From positions 1-28,227 of IMG/VR virus record IMGVR_UViG_3300045988_125232: 28,227 nucleotides of DNA; one strand, written 5' to 3'. Within the stretch, counting starts at the first letter, position 1; the number at the start of each line of letters is the position of its first letter. The notes beneath the pieces are model-generated. The model was not told the DNA's origin, ran no database searches, and was given only the letters and a program-made list of their open reading frames with translations. Positions 2,153-27,263 of this stretch are shown here, one piece after another. Source of the stretch: a virus (taxonomy: Duplodnaviria; Heunggongvirae; Uroviricota; Caudoviricetes). The translations under genes were made by a program, and so were the position numbers.

Positions 2153-2514
2153 TATGCTCCAGCCTCCGGTGCTTTTGGCATTACTGCCCAGTGAGTGATA
2201 TTGACGTTTTCAAGGTCCCCGACCTGAAATGTCCACTGCCAGTCTCCGGTTTCTTTTTGTCCCCAGGTGTACCAGAGAGAACGCCAGCCAATTAGCCAGC
2301 CTTCTCCGTTAGCATCGAATAACAAAACACTTTCATTTGCTGGTGGCAGTTCAGTTGACACTGGTATTACTTTGTTTTCCAGTGCCGCACATTTAGCTTC
2401 AAGCGCATCGAATTTACGCACCAGGTATTCAGCATCCGTTTCATTCACTTTCAGATCTCGCGGTACACATTTCCCGCGAAGAAACCCTTCCATTTCGAAA
2501 ACATTCATGCGCAT
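2152..2514 (-). CDS. Hypothetical early-left operon protein (120 aa, Trp-rich C-terminal half)
   Basis: ORF coupled to its neighbours; resembles small conserved prophage proteins of unknown function; no catalytic motif. Confidence 0.55.
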   Translation of the reverse strand: MRMNVFEMEGFLRGKCVPRDLKVNETDAEYLVRKFDALEAKCAALENKVIPVSTELPPANESVLLFDANGEGWLIGWRSLWYTWGQKETGDWQWTFQVGDLENVNITHWAVMPKAPEAGA

Positions 2515-3041
2515 TTGCGTAACTCCGATAACTCGTTAAAACGTTCCATAAACATCCCGTAGGCATGGCCTGGCGACAGTGGAATAACTTTGAACATCTC
2601 TGTTGCTGGGATACCTTCCAGTAGAGGCCAGAAAGAGCCATCATCAAGCCCGAGATCGCGGCGTTCGGTTGCCAGCATGATGAGATCGGCATATTTCACG
2701 GGCGTGCTCATAACCGGGGGTAACCCGTATTTCTCACGGATTACGGCGTCTATTTTTTCTTCCATCCGTTTATAGTCAGGAAGAAGGCGTTTCAGTTGCG
2801 CGGGGATGTCCTGACAATACGCTTCTGTTGCATCATGCATTAACGCTTCAAAGGCGAACTCTGGCGCCACAAGTTGACTGCACAGAACGGAATGCTGCGC
2901 CACGCTGTAAAAATCCGGCAAGTGTCCCGCGAAGCGGCAGATATTTGAAAGCGCACCGGCGATATCCTCGATATAAATATCGTCAATGGTGGAGTTGATA
3001 TAATTGAACTTCTTACCGGTAAGAGTCTGGATAAAACTCAT
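2505..3041 (-). CDS. HD-domain phosphohydrolase (YfbR-like 5'-deoxynucleotidase family)
   Basis: 178-aa ORF with a His...His-Asp metal-binding signature (VAQHSV ... LMHDATEAY); AAGGAG ribosome-binding site upstream of the ATG. Confidence 0.75.
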   Translation of the reverse strand: MSFIQTLTGKKFNYINSTIDDIYIEDIAGALSNICRFAGHLPDFYSVAQHSVLCSQLVAPEFAFEALMHDATEAYCQDIPAQLKRLLPDYKRMEEKIDAVIREKYGLPPVMSTPVKYADLIMLATERRDLGLDDGSFWPLLEGIPATEMFKVIPLSPGHAYGMFMERFNELSELRKCA

Positions 3042-3198
3042 CGTTAGTTCTCCTTAATTGGTGCGCTGCACCGCACGATTTTTGGTTGCACGAATCCCTC
3101 GCCATAAGGCGATTAAAAGTTTTGGTTTCGTTTCAGTAAATGCCCCATCCAGAGGCACTTAGTGCAACGGGCGGCTGCCATCGCCAGTTATTTTCCCC

Positions 3199-3283
3199 AC
3201 TCAATTGAAAGCGCGTTCCGGAGGTTTTGGACTTAACGAACTGGCACTTAATGACAAGGGACAGAACGCGCTTTCAGTTGAGT
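3199..3283. repeat. Long imperfect inverted repeat (20-bp arms, about 45-bp spacer)
   Basis: ACTCAATTGAAAGCGCGTTC and GAACGCGCTTTCAGTTGAGT are reverse complements with one mismatch, in the non-coding gap between the HD gene and the moron. Confidence 0.5.
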
Positions 3284-3463: not shown

Positions 3464-4060
3464 TTAATGATTGTCGTAATAATTAATTGGCTCATCATTT
3501 TTTTGGTCTGGCATAGTTATGGACCACTTTATATTCTTTAGGCTGTTATGTTTTTTATTGACCTTAAGCTCTCTCTTTGCTTCAGAGATAATATCGTCTA
3601 GTAATACTTTTAATTTATCAAGTCTTGACTTGTGGGCATCTATCAACTCTATACTATCAAACTCCCATTGTATAAATAGATTTTCTTCATTTTCAATGAA
3701 TGAACGGATTTTATCCCCACACTCTTCTGTTAAGAATAATGAAGATAGCTCACCTATTCTACTGAGTTTTTCAAGCTCATTAGAGAAAGATTTGCTAAGG
3801 ATTTCATTTTCTTCTTTTGATTTGTAACTAAAGTAGGTTGGGAATTGTGAAGCGTGATGTAACTCATGTTTATACCAATAGTCAGCTGTGTTTTTTAGAA
3901 GATAAACACAGTCAACTAATTGCGTATACAAATCTATTCTTTTGTCCCACCATTTTTCTTTATAATAACGGCCGAGTGCATATCGCGCAGTTAAGTAAGC
4001 TGCGATTGAGCCTGTAACAAGTCCGATAATTACCTTTGATATAAGGTCATGCCAATCCAT
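3464..4060 (-). CDS. Membrane-anchored protein of unknown function (moron; candidate lysogen-expressed exclusion or abortive-infection factor)
   Basis: 198-aa ORF with one N-terminal hydrophobic helix (VIIGLVTGSIAAYLTA), then a charged, Lys/Glu-rich helical body. Visibly AT-rich compared with flanking phage genes, with its own AT-rich upstream region and its own terminator. Confidence 0.7.
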   Translation of the reverse strand: MDWHDLISKVIIGLVTGSIAAYLTARYALGRYYKEKWWDKRIDLYTQLVDCVYLLKNTADYWYKHELHHASQFPTYFSYKSKEENEILSKSFSNELEKLSRIGELSSLFLTEECGDKIRSFIENEENLFIQWEFDSIELIDAHKSRLDKLKVLLDDIISEAKRELKVNKKHNSLKNIKWSITMPDQKNDEPINYYDNH

Positions 4061-4549: not shown

Positions 4550-5224
4550 TTAGGCTTTGATTTTGTATCTTCTTGGTTTTCCTGAGAAAATCACTGTACC
4601 AATTATAGAGCAATTACCGTTGATCTTAATGTAAGGCTCAGGCCAGTTTGGGTTTAACGCTTTGAGATAACGCTGTGTCCCATCTTCTATCAACCTTTTG
4701 AAGGTGGTTTCACCTGTATCGTGCATCAATGCAATAACGTCGTCACCGTGGCAGGCAGGTACTTCAGGATCGACAAAAATCATGTCTCCCGGGCGGTACT
4801 CATCAATCATTGAATCACCTATCACCCGCAAGATATAAGTCATTTCCCCACAGGGGACAGGGCAGGGATACGTTTCTGCTGTGCTCAAATCAACCTCAGA
4901 ATATCCAACTTCTTTCCATGCTCCGGCCTGTACCCATGATATGACAGGGACTAATGTGATTTGTTTATTAGTGATTGAAACATCAGGTTTTTTTGTGATG
5001 TTCGTTGTCTGGTGTTCTTGATCGAGCCATCCGACAGGCAGGTCGAAACATTTTTCGATGTGTCGTGCCATGCTGTCACCGATATTTTTAGTAGCACCAT
5101 CTCCCATAAACCTGCTGGTCTGGGTTGGCTCGCGATCAATCATAGTGGCAAAGGAAGAATTCCCGCCAACACCATCTCTCAGTTTTCTGGCGTTAGACCG
5201 CCGGATGTCATGGATTGTTTTCAT
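4550..5224 (-). CDS. cI: CI-type prophage repressor (HTH plus S24 LexA-like autopeptidase domain)
   Basis: 224-aa ORF. The C-terminal domain carries the Ser/Lys dyad context (VIGDSM ... FKRL) and its end (LNPNWPEPYIKINGNCSIIGTVI) resembles P22 C2 / lambda CI. Divergently arranged against the cro-like gene. Confidence 0.9.
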   Translation of the reverse strand: MKTIHDIRRSNARKLRDGVGGNSSFATMIDREPTQTSRFMGDGATKNIGDSMARHIEKCFDLPVGWLDQEHQTTNITKKPDVSITNKQITLVPVISWVQAGAWKEVGYSEVDLSTAETYPCPVPCGEMTYILRVIGDSMIDEYRPGDMIFVDPEVPACHGDDVIALMHDTGETTFKRLIEDGTQRYLKALNPNWPEPYIKINGNCSIIGTVIFSGKPRRYKIKA

Positions 5225-11082: not shown

Positions 11083-11835
11083 ATGAACCTTGAAGCCTTA
11101 CCGAAATATTACTCCCCGAAATCTCCAAAACTGAGCGATGACGCACCGGCGACAGGCTCTGGTGGTTTAACGATTACGGATGTGATGGCTGCGCAGGGGA
11201 TGGTGCAGTCGAAAGCACCGCTTGGGTTTGCCTTATTCCTGGCAAAAGTTGGTGTTCAGGATCCTCAGTTTGCGATTGAAGGTCTGCTCAATTACGCGAT
11301 GGCACTGGATAACCCGACATTGAATAAATTGAGTGAAGAAACCCGGCTACAGATCATTCCTTACCTTGTGAATTTTGCCTTTGCTGATTATTCCAGGTCT
11401 GCGGCAAGTAAGGCTCGCTGTGAGCATTGTGCTGGTACTGGATTTCATAATGTATTGCGCGAGGTGGTGAAACACTCCAGAAGCGGGGAATCTGTTATCA
11501 AGGAAGAGTGGGTGAAGGAACTATGTCAGCATTGTCATGGTAAGGGAGAAGTCAGCACAGCGTGCAGAGGGTGTAAGGGTAAAGGTATTGTCCTGGATGA
11601 AAAAAGGACCCGGCTTCATGGCACGCCTGTTTATAAGATTTGTGGGCGTTGCAATGGAAACCGGTTTAGCCGTTTACCAACTACACTGGCACGACGTCAT
11701 GTCCAGAAGCTGGTTCCAGACCTGACTGATTATCAGTGGTACAAAGGATATGCAGACGTAATTGATAAACTAGTAACAAAGTGCTGGCAGGAAGAAGCAT
11801 ATGCTGAAACGCAATTGAGAAAGGTGACGAGATAA
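11083..11835 (+). CDS. Q: Late-gene antitermination protein Q
   Basis: 250-aa ORF with cysteine clusters (CEHCAGTG, CQHCHGKG, CRGCKGKG, CGRCNG) typical of Q-family zinc-binding antiterminators; followed by a promoter and terminator, then the lysis genes. Confidence 0.8.
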   Translation: MNLEALPKYYSPKSPKLSDDAPATGSGGLTITDVMAAQGMVQSKAPLGFALFLAKVGVQDPQFAIEGLLNYAMALDNPTLNKLSEETRLQIIPYLVNFAFADYSRSAASKARCEHCAGTGFHNVLREVVKHSRSGESVIKEEWVKELCQHCHGKGEVSTACRGCKGKGIVLDEKRTRLHGTPVYKICGRCNGNRFSRLPTTLARRHVQKLVPDLTDYQWYKGYADVIDKLVTKCWQEEAYAETQLRKVTR

Positions 11836-11866
11836 GTGATTTTCGCCGAAGATGGCGACATGAAGC

Positions 11867-11895
11867 TTGCATTTTTCAAAAAATATGGATAAGAT
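11867..11895 (+). promoter_or_regulatory. Candidate late promoter (pR'-like)
   Basis: TTGCAT, 17-bp spacer, TAAGAT, located between Q and the downstream terminator. Confidence 0.3.
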
Positions 11896-11941
11896 TTTCT
11901 CAACGATGGGCTTTGTATGTCTGCCGTTGATAATTTTCACG

Positions 11942-11968
11942 AACCCGCTGTTGAGCGGGTTTTTATTT
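11942..11968 (+). terminator. Rho-independent terminator (tR'-like)
   Basis: Hairpin ACCCGC-TGTTGA-GCGGGT followed by TTTTTATTT, downstream of the candidate late promoter. Confidence 0.6.
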
Positions 11969-12020
11969 ACTTGTACTGAAACACATTATATAACCTCATA
12001 TCAGTTAAAAAGGAGGTTGT

Positions 12021-12356
12021 ATGATTAATGCCGTTGAGTACAGATTACCGTTAGGAAATATCTCTCCAGAGAATCTTGACGCGTTGTCAGAGCTTATCGT
12101 TAAGCATTCCGATAAATTTAATAACTATGTACTTAGTTCTATTTCTGATGATGATATTCGATATTCTTACGATTACTACAATTTTGAAATCACAGAGATA
12201 GATGAATATGGGTTTCACTTTATAGCACCATATAGCTATTATGAAGGATGCGTTGACAATAACTTCTCAGGAGAGGTTGAAGGTTATGCAGAATACGAAA
12301 TCATTGATAATGAATTAGTCTTCTCTCTTGAGGAACTACCTTGGGATGTAAAATAA
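12021..12356 (+). CDS. Highly acidic small protein of unknown function (moron downstream of Q)
   Basis: 111-aa ORF with a strong AAGGAGG ribosome-binding site. AT-rich, bracketed by the upstream terminator and its own downstream terminator; Asp/Glu residues far outnumber basic ones. Confidence 0.7.
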   Translation: MINAVEYRLPLGNISPENLDALSELIVKHSDKFNNYVLSSISDDDIRYSYDYYNFEITEIDEYGFHFIAPYSYYEGCVDNNFSGEVEGYAEYEIIDNELVFSLEELPWDVK

Positions 12357-12367
12357 ATATCAATAAT

Positions 12368-12398
12368 AAAGGCCGTAACGAACGGCCTTTATTATTAT
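12368..12398. terminator. Bidirectional-looking rho-independent terminator
   Basis: Hairpin AAAGGCCGT-AACGA-ACGGCCTTT flanked by A-run and T-run. Confidence 0.6.
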
Positions 12399-12507
12399 AA
12401 AATCATCAATGCCTGATGAATTAGAATGTAATTTTCGAATTAATAATAAATCAACATATCATTTCACGCTCCGATTTTCTGTCGGAGGCGAAACTGCGGC
12501 TATTCAT

Positions 12508-12813
12508 ATGCACGAAAAAGAGAATCTTGCTGGAGCGTTCTGGCTCGTTTTGCTGATCATCGCAGGTTGGGGCGGTCTGGTCCGCTACCTGATAGATGTG
12601 AAGCAGAGTAAAGCAACGTGGAGTTGGATAAATGCTCTGGCTCAGATAGTGGTATCAGGATTCACCGGTGTTATTGGTGGCCTGATCAGCATCGAAAGTG
12701 GATTCAGTATTTACATGATTCTCGCGACAGCGGGGATTAGTGGTGCGATGGGTTCGGTTGCACTGACGTACTTCTGGGAACGACTGACAGGGGTGAAAAA
12801 TGCAAAATCTTAA
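12508..12813 (+). CDS. Holin (three predicted transmembrane segments)
   Basis: Hydrophobic about 100-aa product immediately upstream of, and overlapping, the endolysin. The start is uncertain: the ORF extends up to an ATG at 12409, and a GGAGG lies 19 nt before the 12508 ATG. Confidence 0.6.
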   Translation: MHEKENLAGAFWLVLLIIAGWGGLVRYLIDVKQSKATWSWINALAQIVVSGFTGVIGGLISIESGFSIYMILATAGISGAMGSVALTYFWERLTGVKNAKS

Positions 12814-13988: not shown

Positions 13989-14213
13989 ATGTTAGAGAAT
14001 TATTTCCCTTCAGGAATAGGTGCTCAGCCTGTAACTCAAGCTCAAAAACAGAGGGTTATAGCTGTTCAAGCTGCCCTTGAATTAGTTAAGGCCTCACTTT
14101 CTTCTGCAGGTGGTCAGGCTACAAGTGCAAAATTTGAACAGGAATTAAAAGCAGCTATTGGCTTAATTGAACCATTAGCCGATGCCATTCAGAAAGCAAT
14201 CAGCAAAGAATAA
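13989..14213 (+). CDS. Small helical protein of unknown function (74 aa)
   Basis: Strong ribosome-binding site (ACGGAGGTTGTAATG) and AT-rich flanks, between the lysis cassette and the HNH/terminase genes. Confidence 0.6.
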   Translation: MLENYFPSGIGAQPVTQAQKQRVIAVQAALELVKASLSSAGGQATSAKFEQELKAAIGLIEPLADAIQKAISKE

Positions 14214-26732: not shown

Positions 26733-27263
26733 ATGAAAGGCTATATCACAGCAAGTGTAATTCTTGGAGCAGCGGCTATTTTTTCATCTCTCATAATCTC
26801 TGGCAACATCTCCTTTAAAGATGAACATATTATTCAGTTATCTGGAGGAGCCATAAAACTTGGTGATGTTTATAAAGAAAATAAATTGATAAGTGCAAAG
26901 ATTATTTTTCCAGATAATCAGGGTGAACAGATTCTTGTTGTCGACGGCAATCCTGAAAACTTTAAGGAGGATTTTCAGGAGAAATTAAATAAAGTAATAA
27001 AAACTTTAAATGCGTCAAAGAAAAAAGATGAAGAGAAAGTTAGCCTGGATAATTTAAGTGTTATTGAAGAGTCTAAACTAGAGCTCGTTTCTGCGGTGCG
27101 TTACTCTGCTCAGTATGTTCCTATGTTTACTCTGACGCTGGACAAAAAAGAAATTACCATGCCTAAAAATACGGTAATATTTCCATTTGCCAGCGATGAA
27201 ACAGCTAAGTATTTAAATGAACAACAGCAAAAGTATAAAGATTCGTTGTTTCTGACTCGCTAA
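26733..27263 (+). CDS. Signal-anchored/exported protein of unknown function (moron inside the tail gene cluster)
   Basis: 176-aa ORF with an N-terminal hydrophobic signal or anchor (ITASVILGAAAIFSSLIISG) and a Lys/Glu-rich body. Strongly AT-rich against GC-rich tail genes, with its own promoter-like elements and terminator. Confidence 0.75.
   Translation: MKGYITASVILGAAAIFSSLIISGNISFKDEHIIQLSGGAIKLGDVYKENKLISAKIIFPDNQGEQILVVDGNPENFKEDFQEKLNKVIKTLNASKKKDEEKVSLDNLSVIEESKLELVSAVRYSAQYVPMFTLTLDKKEITMPKNTVIFPFASDETAKYLNEQQQKYKDSLFLTR

What the first reader, a model, noticed from the sequence alone, without database searches (positions are those of the whole stretch)
11836..12400. Highly acidic 111-aa moron immediately downstream of Q and its terminator (the position Stx phages use for toxin genes)
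The ORF at 12021-12356 is AT-rich, has a strong ribosome-binding site, and lies between the tR'-like terminator and a second terminator ahead of the holin. That is the slot where lambdoid phages carry lysogenic-conversion cargo such as stxAB. The protein is strongly acidic with aromatic clusters (YSYDYYNFE, YSYYEG). An acidic small protein here could be a DNA-mimic anti-restriction factor, an immunity or antitoxin partner, or something new; none of these is shown by the sequence.
Basis: partly seen in the sequence, partly recalled or inferred. Interest (0 to 1): 0.6.

Follow-up and report, generated by a model that had tools for sequence, protein, structure and literature searches.

The report
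Acidic orphan moron downstream of Q
A small, very acidic protein gene of unknown function sits as a self-contained, AT-rich insert between the late-gene activator Q and the lysis genes of an E. coli prophage, the same slot where related phages carry Shiga toxin; it belongs to a small uncharacterised family, and whether it mimics DNA is untested.

Summary
ORF 12021-12356 (+) encodes 111 aa (pI 4.05, net charge -19, 17% aromatic). It lies in a 34% GC block in a 50% GC prophage, between the tR'-like terminator after Q and its own hairpin terminator ahead of the holin.

It is a real gene. It gives a full-length match to PHROG 13663 (function unknown). The DNA is present in 131 of 5426 complete E. 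coli genomes. About 30-45 homologue clusters exist, all named ones from Enterobacterales. Non-synonymous change is far below saturated synonymous change.

In prophages the family sits in the Q-to-holin interval, behind three different Q families and ahead of at least four holin families. A Stx2c phage with a near-identical Q carries stx2 in that interval.

A 13-bp hairpin sequesters the ribosome-binding site and the AUG.

Best reading: a classical moron encoding a cytoplasmic binding or inhibitor protein whose target is unknown. DNA mimicry is neither supported nor excluded. Interest is moderate.

The parts
11083..11835 (+). Q antiterminator gene (250 aa). It is the upstream anchor of the cargo slot.
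   Evidence: Pfam PF03589 Antiterm, E = 3.8e-54; PHROG 127, E = 4.7e-109. RefSeq calls it 'antitermination protein'. A near-identical Q occurs in Stx2c phage LC727876.
11867..11895 (+). pR'-like late promoter: TTGCAT, 17-nt spacer, TAAGAT. Assigned by inference.
   Evidence: Read from the sequence. The block 11837-11964 is 84-93% identical to the Q-proximal region of SfV, mEp460 and Stx2c phages. It does not pass the consensus promoter scan, so the assignment rests on position and conservation only.
11941..11969 (+). tR'-like intrinsic terminator: a GAACCCGC-loop-GAGCGGGTT hairpin followed by a T-run.
   Evidence: Terminator scan: 9 pairs, 5 of them GC, with a T tail. Annotated as a terminator in SfV. 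The hairpin is nearly invariant in five aligned loci. It is part of the MFE fold.
11963..12475 (+). AT-rich cargo cassette, the moron: leader, ORF, terminator and cassette-specific spacer.
   Evidence: Similarity to SfV and Stx2c phages ends at the tR' T-run. Similarity to the holin module of other E. coli prophages starts near 12476, which is query position 193. GC is 0.31-0.36 in this block.
11966..11994 (+). Promoter-like element of the cassette: TTTACT, 17-nt spacer, TATAAC. Uncertain.
   Evidence: Read from the sequence. The same spacing and hexamers, TTTACA-17-TATAAC, occur in the Salmonella and Citrobacter cassettes. Distant members keep TGn(C/T)ATAAC. It is not called by the consensus scan because position 6 of the -10 hexamer is C.
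11985..12025 (+). 5' leader hairpin of 13 bp that pairs the Shine-Dalgarno sequence (12013-12016) and the AUG (12021-12023) with 11985-11997.
   Evidence: MFE is -13.7 kcal/mol. The z-score is -3.15, and 1 of 200 dinucleotide shuffles folds as well. The same hairpin appears in the longer transcript. Analogous anti-SD hairpins with different arm sequences occur in relatives.
12021..12356 (+). Gene for the 111-aa acidic protein (RefSeq WP_000606308.1, hypothetical protein; PHROG 13663).
12361..12397 (.). The cassette's own hairpin terminator. It looks bidirectional.
   Evidence: Terminator scan: 16 pairs, 5 of them GC. Every family member examined has its own GC hairpin plus T-run at this position, each with a different sequence.
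12508..12813 (+). Holin, the first gene of the lysis cassette and the downstream anchor of the slot.
   Evidence: PF16083, E = 1.5e-21; PHROG 785. The RefSeq start corresponds to 12508. The same holin follows a lambda-type Q directly, with no cargo, in DLP12-like prophages.

Best explanation
This is a classical moron. A roughly 0.5-kb AT-rich cassette sits immediately after the tR' terminator of an SfV/e14-like E. coli prophage. It consists of a leader with a weak promoter-like element, an RBS-occluding hairpin, one ORF and its own intrinsic terminator.

Shown:
- The cassette is a discrete mosaic unit.
- The ORF is a conserved gene under purifying selection.
- In prophages the family is tied to the Q-to-lysis interval, whichever Q family or holin family flanks it.
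- The product is a soluble, single-domain alpha+beta protein whose large negative charge is conserved across the family.

Inferred:
- The gene is transcribed as the first gene of the Q-antiterminated late transcript from pR', and possibly also from its own weak promoter.
- Translation is damped or gated by the hairpin that pairs the SD and the AUG.
- The protein acts stoichiometrically. It binds and blocks a positively charged, probably nucleic-acid-binding, surface of a host or competitor protein. It would therefore be a counter-defence or host-takeover inhibitor, not an enzyme, lysis factor or virion part.

The target is unknown.
For: Anatomy and composition.

Discrete unit:
- Similarity to SfV and Stx2c phages stops at the tR' T-run.
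- Similarity to other prophages' holin module resumes near 12476.
- The same holin follows Q directly in DLP12-like prophages.
- In Klebsiella a 31%-identical homologue with its own terminator lies between an orf47-like gene and a DNA methyltransferase. Those two genes are adjacent in SfV.

Real gene:
- PHROG 13663 full-length match, E = 9.4e-54.
- DNA present in 131 of 5426 complete E. coli genomes.
- 24 clusters by exhaustive phmmer and 31 by profile search.
- pN is 0.17-0.24 against pS of about 0.8. dN/dS is 0.28 for the one unsaturated pair.

Slot fidelity:
- The upstream gene is a Q of PF03589, PF06530/DUF1133 or PF06323.
- The downstream holin belongs to PF16083, PF16931, PF04971/PF16080 or PF05106.
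- Cargo that shares the slot includes N6_N4 DNA methyltransferase, SocA/Panacea, TerB (faint hit) and, in a Stx2c phage, stx2.

Protein:
- No hydrophobic segment; the highest 19-residue Kyte-Doolittle mean is 0.59.
- Net charge is -9 to -22, median -17, in 41 members that are only 28-40% identical.
- Most of the charge is not fixed in position, which suggests selection on overall charge.
- The AF2 model has pLDDT 87.6 and pTM 0.79.

Hairpin. Fisher combination over one representative per lineage gives p about 0.01.
Against: - No binding partner, phenotype or expression data exist.
- Q-dependent late expression is the wrong time to protect incoming DNA from restriction.
- An invariant set of residues (D45, Y48, G76, C77, W108, plus D79 and D/E104-E105) looks like a specific site and could equally be a ligand pocket.
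- Some members are stand-alone chromosomal genes outside any recognisable late operon.
- The promoter-like element has C at the last -10 position and fails the consensus scan.
- The anti-SD hairpin is individually significant in only two lineages, and RNAalifold found no consensus on a MAFFT alignment.
Confidence: 0.4

Rival explanations
1. The gene is a lysogenic-conversion or defence moron. It is expressed from its own promoter in the lysogen and benefits the host, for example as a decoy that blocks a DNA-binding protein of superinfecting phages. Under this reading it does not serve the phage's own lytic cycle.
For: - A conserved promoter-like element lies between tR' and the ATG (TTTAC[T/A]-17-TATAAC; TGnCATAAC in distant members).
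- The cassette has its own terminator.
- In the window, a transcript starting just after TATAAC would lack the 5' arm of the hairpin. Only that transcript would then have a free RBS (inference).
- Stand-alone chromosomal copies exist. If they are expressed, it must be without Q.
- The composition is AT-rich, as is typical of morons.
Against: - The -10 hexamer lacks the conserved final T and fails the scan.
- In the window's subgroup the TATAAC conservation is confounded, because the hexamer lies inside the hairpin arm.
- In distant members the hairpin lies downstream of the promoter-like motif, so the transcript-specific logic does not generalise.
- There is no PADLOC hit.
Confidence: 0.2
2. 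The protein is a small-molecule-binding protein, or a small enzyme, with a cystatin/NTF2-like cone. For example, it could act as a sponge for a signalling or toxic metabolite. The invariant Asp, Tyr, Cys and Trp residues and the aromatic residues would line a pocket.
For: - Invariant or near-invariant F33, D45, Y48, F55, G76, C77 and W108, plus D79, Y73/Y74 and Y92.
Against: - A net charge of -19 is unfavourable for binding nucleotide-type immune signals.
- No Pfam or PDB sequence relationship to any enzyme or known sponge was found.
- W108 lies in the low-confidence C-terminal tail.
Confidence: 0.15
3. The protein is a lysis-associated factor, for example a cytoplasmic regulator of holin timing. 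It would be kept next to the lysis cassette because it works with it.
For: In most prophage loci the gene is immediately upstream of the holin and in the same transcription unit.
Against: - The downstream holins belong to at least four unrelated Pfam families.
- In Klebsiella and Salmonella, 1-4.5 kb of other cargo separates the gene from the holin.
- A terminator separates it from the holin in every locus.
- The same holin works without it in DLP12-like prophages.
- It has no membrane segment.
- Stand-alone chromosomal copies exist.
Confidence: 0.07
4. The ORF is a functionless or decaying passenger.
For: There is no known domain, the taxonomic range is narrow, and the family is small.
Against: - Strong purifying selection.
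- Seven invariant residues across sequences that are 28-40% identical.
- A confident fold prediction.
- A strong SD sequence.
- The probability of an open frame of this length by chance is about 1e-4.
Confidence: 0.03

Closest known systems
PHROG 13663 (phage/prophage orthologous group, function unknown); RefSeq WP_000606308.1 'hypothetical protein'
   Same: Full-length HMM match, residues 1-111 to profile positions 1-111, E = 9.4e-54. The protein is identical in many E. coli genomes.
   Different: Nothing differs. This is the same family, and it carries no functional annotation. It has no Pfam, NCBIfam or PADLOC model.
Cargo ('moron') genes of the Q-to-S interval of lambdoid phages: stx1/stx2 of Stx phages, SfV orf47/orf48 (DNA methyltransferase)
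   Same: - Same slot, directly after pR'-tR'.
- Same near-identical Q and tR' as Stx2c phages and SfV.
- Atypical base composition and its own terminator.
   Different: The product is unrelated. It has no signal peptide, so it is not a secreted toxin. It has no methyltransferase domain. The cassette has one gene.
DNA-mimic anti-restriction proteins Ocr (T7 gp0.3) and ArdA
   Same: Small size, cytoplasmic, very acidic (pI about 4), aromatic-rich, carried by a mobile element.
   Different: - No sequence relationship: hhalign against Ocr gives a probability of 0.09%, and the PDB profile search gives no hit.
- The predicted fold is an alpha+beta roll, whereas Ocr is an all-helical dimer (established knowledge, PDB 1S7Z).
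- The gene is in a late transcription unit, whereas ocr and ardA are the first genes expressed on entry (established knowledge).
Cystatin-like / NTF2-like / VirB8-like alpha+beta rolls
SD-sequestering leader hairpins (RNA-thermometer-like or translational-gating stem-loops)
   Same: A single stem pairs the SD and the AUG. It has an AU/GU-rich lower part and an A-rich loop.
   Different: - No Rfam family matches above its gathering threshold.
- Temperature or ligand dependence was not tested.
- Conservation across the family is only moderately significant.

Membership tests
Moron (extra transcription unit in a phage genome, in the sense of Hendrix and Juhala) | The gene is present in some closely related phage genomes and absent from others at the same position. 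| tested here: met
   SfV and Stx2c phages share Q, pR' and tR' but carry different cargo after the T-run. DLP12-like prophages have the same holin directly after Q. Only 131 of about 1020 E. coli genomes that match the pR'-tR' block carry the ORF.
Moron (extra transcription unit in a phage genome, in the sense of Hendrix and Juhala) | Its own transcription terminator downstream. | tested here: met
   Hairpin at 12361-12397. Every homologue examined has its own GC hairpin plus T-run, each with a different sequence.
Moron (extra transcription unit in a phage genome, in the sense of Hendrix and Juhala) | Its own promoter upstream. | tested here: inconclusive
   TTTACT-17-TATAAC lies at 11966-11994 and is conserved in Salmonella and Citrobacter. 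Distant members keep TGnCATAAC. The consensus scan reports no promoter there.
Moron (extra transcription unit in a phage genome, in the sense of Hendrix and Juhala) | Base composition differs from that of the flanking phage genes. | tested here: met
   GC is 0.34, against 0.47-0.55 for the neighbouring genes and 0.505 for the window.
Moron (extra transcription unit in a phage genome, in the sense of Hendrix and Juhala) | Expressed from the repressed prophage. | not testable with these tools
   This needs RNA-seq or 5'-RACE of a lysogen.
Ocr family (T7 gp0.3) | Sequence or profile similarity to Ocr. | tested here: not met
   hhalign of family alignment A3 against T7 gp0.3: probability 0.09%, one aligned column. 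The PDB profile search gives no hit.
Ocr family (T7 gp0.3) | All-helical fold that mimics bent B-DNA. | tested here: not met
   The AF2 model has six to seven beta strands and two helices.
ArdA / KlcA-ArdB and other solved anti-restriction or DNA-mimic proteins | Sequence similarity to a solved member. | tested here: not met
DNA mimic (a functional class, not a homology family) | Surface array of carboxylates spaced like DNA phosphates, and binding to a DNA-binding protein. | not testable with these tools
   Only the net charge (-19; -9 to -22 across the family) could be measured.
PHROG 13663 | Full-length match to the family HMM. | tested here: met
   E = 9.4e-54, residues 1-111 to profile positions 1-111 of 111.
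Holin / antiholin / spanin (lysis proteins) | A transmembrane segment or lipoprotein signal, or homology to a lysis family. | tested here: not met
   The highest 19-residue hydropathy is 0.59. There are no Pfam or PHROG lysis hits.
Known anti-phage defence proteins (PADLOC-DB) | HMM match. | tested here: not met
   No family at E <= 10.

The most novel reading that the evidence does not exclude
The family is a new structural class of acidic protein inhibitor, carried as the leader cargo of lambdoid late operons. It would neutralise a host system that acts late in infection, for example a defence that senses or attacks replicating or packaging DNA or late proteins. The SD-sequestering hairpin would make its translation depend on which transcript carries it: the moron's own promoter or Q read-through.
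Probability: 0.15. Interest if true: 0.65.

Novelty: new member of a known kind. Interest (0 to 1): 0.4.

Why it matters
The Q-to-lysis interval of lambdoid prophages is where Shiga toxins and other conversion genes ride, because Q antitermination gives them a burst of expression at induction.

This work identifies a conserved cargo family in that slot that has not been studied. The family is catalogued only as an unknown PHROG. Its features are:
- extreme negative charge conserved across the family;
- no close structural relative;
- a fixed position behind three unrelated Q families.

That makes it a well-defined candidate for counter-defence or host-manipulation screens. The gene is present in about 2.4% of complete E. 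coli genomes, including the type strain ATCC 11775 and the meningitis strain S88, so strains and prophages for testing are easy to obtain.

If it proves to be an inhibitor of a DNA-binding defence or repair protein, it would add a new fold to the DNA-mimic and anti-defence repertoire. If not, it remains an ordinary orphan moron.

Tried and rejected
- Pfam, NCBIfam and PADLOC scans of the protein and of 30 family members found nothing above chance.
- tblastn against 50,697 GenBank phage records found no match. Against plasmids it found only a 37.7-kb circular record of strain CX04, which is probably the excised phage.
- A PDB sequence-profile search found only a chance-level hit to actophorin.
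- Foldseek against BFVD found nothing. The AFDB50 library was not available.
- hhalign against T7 Ocr showed no relationship.
- A 3121-aa hit with eight matched stretches (P0012) is a bacterial cadherin-like repeat adhesin. A weak 45-residue beta-hairpin similarity (33% identity) is multiplied by identical repeats. Rejected as spurious.
- P0005 (134 aa) has an N-terminus identical to this protein and then an unrelated domain. It is treated as a chimeric metagenome call.
- RNAalifold on a MAFFT alignment of 17 leaders found no consensus structure. I replaced it with a duplex-energy-versus-shuffle test.
- A simple 'probability that the SD is paired' metric did not distinguish this gene from other window genes.
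- Rfam found nothing above gathering scores in 11700-12600.
- A search for an 'empty site' with both window flanks found none. All 131 genomes with both flanks contain the cassette.
- The search for related loci with the full family alignment failed for lack of a conserved stretch. A subset alignment found only one locus in GTDB genomes but 21 in IMG/VR.
- Literature searches for the accession, the PHROG id and the topic found nothing specific.
Full report

Yes. The window has an ATG-initiated ORF at 12021-12356 (+) of 111 codons, preceded by AAGGAGG four bases upstream. Its GC content is 0.339, against 0.505 for the whole window. A 300-nt sliding profile drops to 0.31-0.36 between about 11850 and 12450 and returns to about 0.48-0.50 on both sides.

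The product has 24 Asp+Glu and 5 Lys+Arg, giving a net charge of -19 and a pI of 4.05. It has 12 Tyr, and F+W+Y make up 17% of residues. It has no hydrophobic segment; the highest 19-residue Kyte-Doolittle mean is 0.59. With the local base composition, the chance of 111 codons without a stop is about 1e-4.

**2. Anatomy of the locus**

- The gene upstream (11083-11835) is a Q antiterminator (PF03589, E = 3.8e-54; PHROG 127).
- Between Q and the ORF lie a pR'-like promoter (TTGCAT-17-TAAGAT, 11867-11895, read) and a terminator-like hairpin at 11941-11962 followed by a T-run.
- This 130-bp block is 84-93% identical to the Q-proximal region of SfV, mEp460, Ayreon and fifteen Stx2c phages. In SfV the hairpin is annotated as a terminator.
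- After the ORF comes a 16-bp hairpin at 12361-12397. Its GC core is followed by TTTATTATT on the plus strand and by a T-rich tail on the minus strand.
- Then come the holin (PF16083; RefSeq start equivalent to 12508), the endolysin and an Rz-like gene.
- The prophage as a whole is SfV/e14-like: ymfT/ymfL/ymfR homologues, an HK97-type head and a P27-type small terminase.

**3. The ORF sits in a discrete cassette**

- Alignment with SfV and a Stx2c phage shows that similarity ends exactly at the tR' T-run.
- A query made of the two flanks shows that similarity to the holin module of more than a thousand other E. coli prophages starts only at about 12476. The cassette is therefore about 11963-12475.
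- DLP12-like prophages in O157:H7 and ST131 have this same holin about 320 nt after a lambda-type Q, with nothing in between.
- The Stx2c phage LC727876 has a near-identical Q and pR'-tR'. Downstream it carries a 141-aa lipoprotein-like gene, an orf47-like gene, a DNA methyltransferase and then stxA2/stxB2. SfV carries orf47 plus a methyltransferase between two terminators.
- No 'empty site' with both of the window's own flanks exists among 5426 complete E. coli genomes. All 131 genomes with both flanks contain the cassette.

**4. The gene and its family**

- The protein matches PHROG 13663 over its full length (E = 9.4e-54, function unknown). In RefSeq it is WP_000606308.1, 'hypothetical protein'.
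- The DNA occurs at 99% identity or more in 130 records, from 131 of 5426 complete E. coli genomes. These include the type strain ATCC 11775 and strain S88.
- A 5.8-billion-protein search found only Salmonella (72% identity) and Citrobacter (69%) homologues.
- An exhaustive phmmer search of 1.84 billion cluster representatives found 24 clusters at E <= 1e-3, nearly all of 106-118 aa. A profile search found 31 clusters. All names given by the sources are Enterobacterales: Klebsiella, Citrobacter, Salmonella, Erwinia and Erwiniaceae.
- Across 30 sequences that are 26-40% identical to the window protein, F33, D45, Y48, F55, G76, C77 and W108 are invariant.
- In a 47-sequence alignment, D79, D/E104, E105 and a set of aromatic positions are also conserved.
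- Between the window gene and its closest homologues, synonymous sites are saturated (pS about 0.8) while pN is 0.17-0.24. The one unsaturated pair gives dN/dS of 0.28.
- Net charge is -9 to -22 (median -17) in 41 members. Only about ten columns are acidic in at least 70% of members, so the charge is largely selected as a bulk property.

**5. Genomic context of the family**

In every prophage locus with enough flanking sequence, the gene lies after a Q antiterminator and before the lysis cassette.

- The Q belongs to three different Pfam families: PF03589, PF06530/DUF1133 and PF06323.
- The holin belongs to at least four: PF16083, PF16931 with PF05449, PF04971/PF16080, and PF05106.
- In Klebsiella and some Salmonella prophages the gene is not adjacent to the holin. 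It lies between an orf47-like winged-helix gene and an N6_N4 DNA methyltransferase, followed by other cargo (SocA/Panacea, a faint TerB hit).
- Because orf47 and the methyltransferase are adjacent in SfV, the acidic-protein gene with its own terminator behaves there as an insertion.
- Exceptions are stand-alone chromosomal copies flanked by long non-coding stretches or tiny ORFs. One is next to an ExoI-like gene. One is in a minC to dsbB/fadR region. One is in a decayed, IS-ridden prophage of Erwinia tracheiphila.

**6. Structure**

- With four sequences, AF2 gave pLDDT 74. With 30 sequences it gave pLDDT 87.6 and pTM 0.79.
- The topology is beta(3-10), alpha(19-28), alpha(30-41), beta(48-50), beta(56-60), beta(64-73), beta(82-95), beta(98-105). 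The last four residues, including invariant W108, are low-confidence.
- Foldseek against BFVD gives nothing at E <= 0.001. AFDB50 was not available.
- A profile search of all PDB chain sequences returns only a chance-level hit. hhalign against T7 Ocr gives 0.09% probability.
- The protein is therefore not a member of the Ocr, ArdA or any other solved anti-restriction family. This does not exclude mimicry as a mechanism.
- From the strand register, E84, E86, E90 and E92 and then E98, S102 and E104 would point to one face of the sheet. This is inference.

**7. Regulatory features of the cassette**

(a) Terminator. Each family member has its own GC hairpin plus T-run, with a different sequence in each lineage.

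(b) Promoter-like element. The window has TTTACT-17-TATAAC at 11966-11994, overlapping the tR' T-run. The Salmonella and Citrobacter cassettes have TTTACA-17-TATAAC. Distant members keep TGn(C/T)ATAAC, often preceded by a direct repeat of TTTCTGAC. The final C of the -10 hexamer is atypical and the consensus scan does not call it, so an autonomous promoter is possible but unproven.

(c) Leader hairpin. A 13-bp hairpin (11985-11997 with 12013-12025) pairs the SD and the AUG. Its MFE is -13.7 kcal/mol, with z = -3.15, and 1 of 200 shuffles folds as well. It persists in the longer transcript.
- Relatives have analogous anti-SD stems with different sequences: AACCTC/GAGGTT, TCACC/GGTGA, ATCCAC/GTGGAT and TTCCTT/AAGGAA.
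- Duplex energy between the SD region and the upstream leader beats dinucleotide shuffles at p <= 0.01 in five of 17 leaders, from two lineages. It is weaker elsewhere.
- Fisher combination over one representative per lineage gives p of about 0.01.
- RNAalifold on a MAFFT alignment found no consensus. A simple SD-pairing probability did not set this gene apart from other genes in the window.
- I therefore rate RBS gating as likely in the window's own lineage and suggestive for the family.

**8. How it most likely works**

Established knowledge of lambdoid Q proteins says that RNA polymerase modified at pR' reads through tR' and later terminators. The ORF would then be the first gene of the late transcript. 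This is inference.

The conserved bulk negative charge, the small single domain, the absence of any catalytic signature or membrane segment, and the company it keeps in the slot (DNA methyltransferases, TA-related domains, toxins) make a stoichiometric binding or inhibitor role against a basic, probably nucleic-acid-binding, protein the most economical mechanism. My confidence is about 0.4, including the moron anatomy, which on its own is about 0.85.

Rivals:
- a lysogen-expressed host-benefit or defence decoy (0.2);
- a ligand-binding pocket protein that uses the invariant D45, Y48, C77, D79 and W108 (0.15);
- a lysis-timing factor (0.07), which the variety of holin families, the intervening cargo and the stand-alone copies make unlikely;
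- a functionless ORF (0.03), which purifying selection contradicts.

Late expression argues against a classical role in protecting incoming DNA. A target that acts late in infection, or expression in the lysogen, would fit better.

**9. Comparison with what is known, and novelty**

As a genetic element this is a textbook moron in a well-known cargo slot. Three of four testable defining features are met and the promoter is inconclusive.

As a protein it belongs to an uncharacterised family catalogued only as PHROG 13663. I found no literature on it.

I file it as a new member of a known kind. If a new inhibitor fold or transcript-dependent translational gating were demonstrated, it would become a new variant of a known kind. 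Interest is moderate (0.4): it is a clean, testable candidate, but nothing about it is yet surprising to a phage specialist.

Noticed in passing
window 3464-4060 (-) and 26733-27263 (+): Two more AT-rich orphan ORFs (198 aa at GC about 0.31, and 176 aa at GC 0.34) have no Pfam hit. The first lies between the integrase/early-left genes and the S24 repressor. The second lies in the tail region. They are probably further morons.
   Followed up: partly
window 13989-14213 (+): A 74-aa ORF with a good SD sequence lies in an AT-rich stretch (GC about 0.39) between the Rz-like gene and the HNH/terminase genes. It has no Pfam hit and is annotated as hypothetical in RefSeq.
   Followed up: partly
window 12409-12813: The holin frame is open from 12409 (134 aa). 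The RefSeq start corresponds to 12508 (101 aa), and similarity to other prophages' holin module begins only near 12476. The N-terminal extension is therefore probably not translated.
   Followed up: partly
window 11941-11969; L002, L007, L012, L022, L027 upstream of the family gene: The tR' hairpin (G/A)AACCCGC-N4-GAGCGGG followed by a T-run is almost unchanged downstream of three unrelated Q families (PF03589, PF06530/DUF1133, PF06323). The sequences between Q and the hairpin differ.
   Followed up: no
L012 about 4870-4905, L019, L022, L024 (upstream of distant family members): A conserved non-coding motif, TTTCTGAC-N9-TTTCTG(A/G)CATAAC, forms a direct repeat that overlaps an extended -10-like element. 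It lies 45-55 nt upstream of the ATG. It may be a regulator site or promoter.
   Followed up: no
L026 5001-5333; L065 4340-4675; L016/L032 (Erwinia tracheiphila): Stand-alone chromosomal copies of the family lie outside any intact late operon. In L016 and L026 about 950 nt without a called gene follows the copy, and L026 has a similar gap upstream. In L065 the copy lies among tiny ORFs.
   Followed up: partly
NZ_CP081716.1 (37,667-bp circular 'plasmid' record of E. coli CX04), 30801-31386: This record carries the cassette at 99.5% identity, and the same strain also has a chromosomal copy. The record is probably the excised circular phage genome, which suggests the prophage is active.
   Followed up: no
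P0005 (metagenome protein, 134 aa): Its first 47 residues are identical to those of the window protein. The rest is an unrelated PF13306 leucine-rich-repeat-like sequence. It is probably an assembly or gene-calling chimera.
   Followed up: no
L007-L011 (Citrobacter prophage), 2181-3275 (-): A colicin-domain (PF01024) gene of 364 aa lies in the early region of the Citrobacter prophages that carry the 69%-identical homologue. A pyocin-S/DNase with its immunity gene follows the lysis cassette in the Erwiniaceae prophage L024.
   Followed up: no
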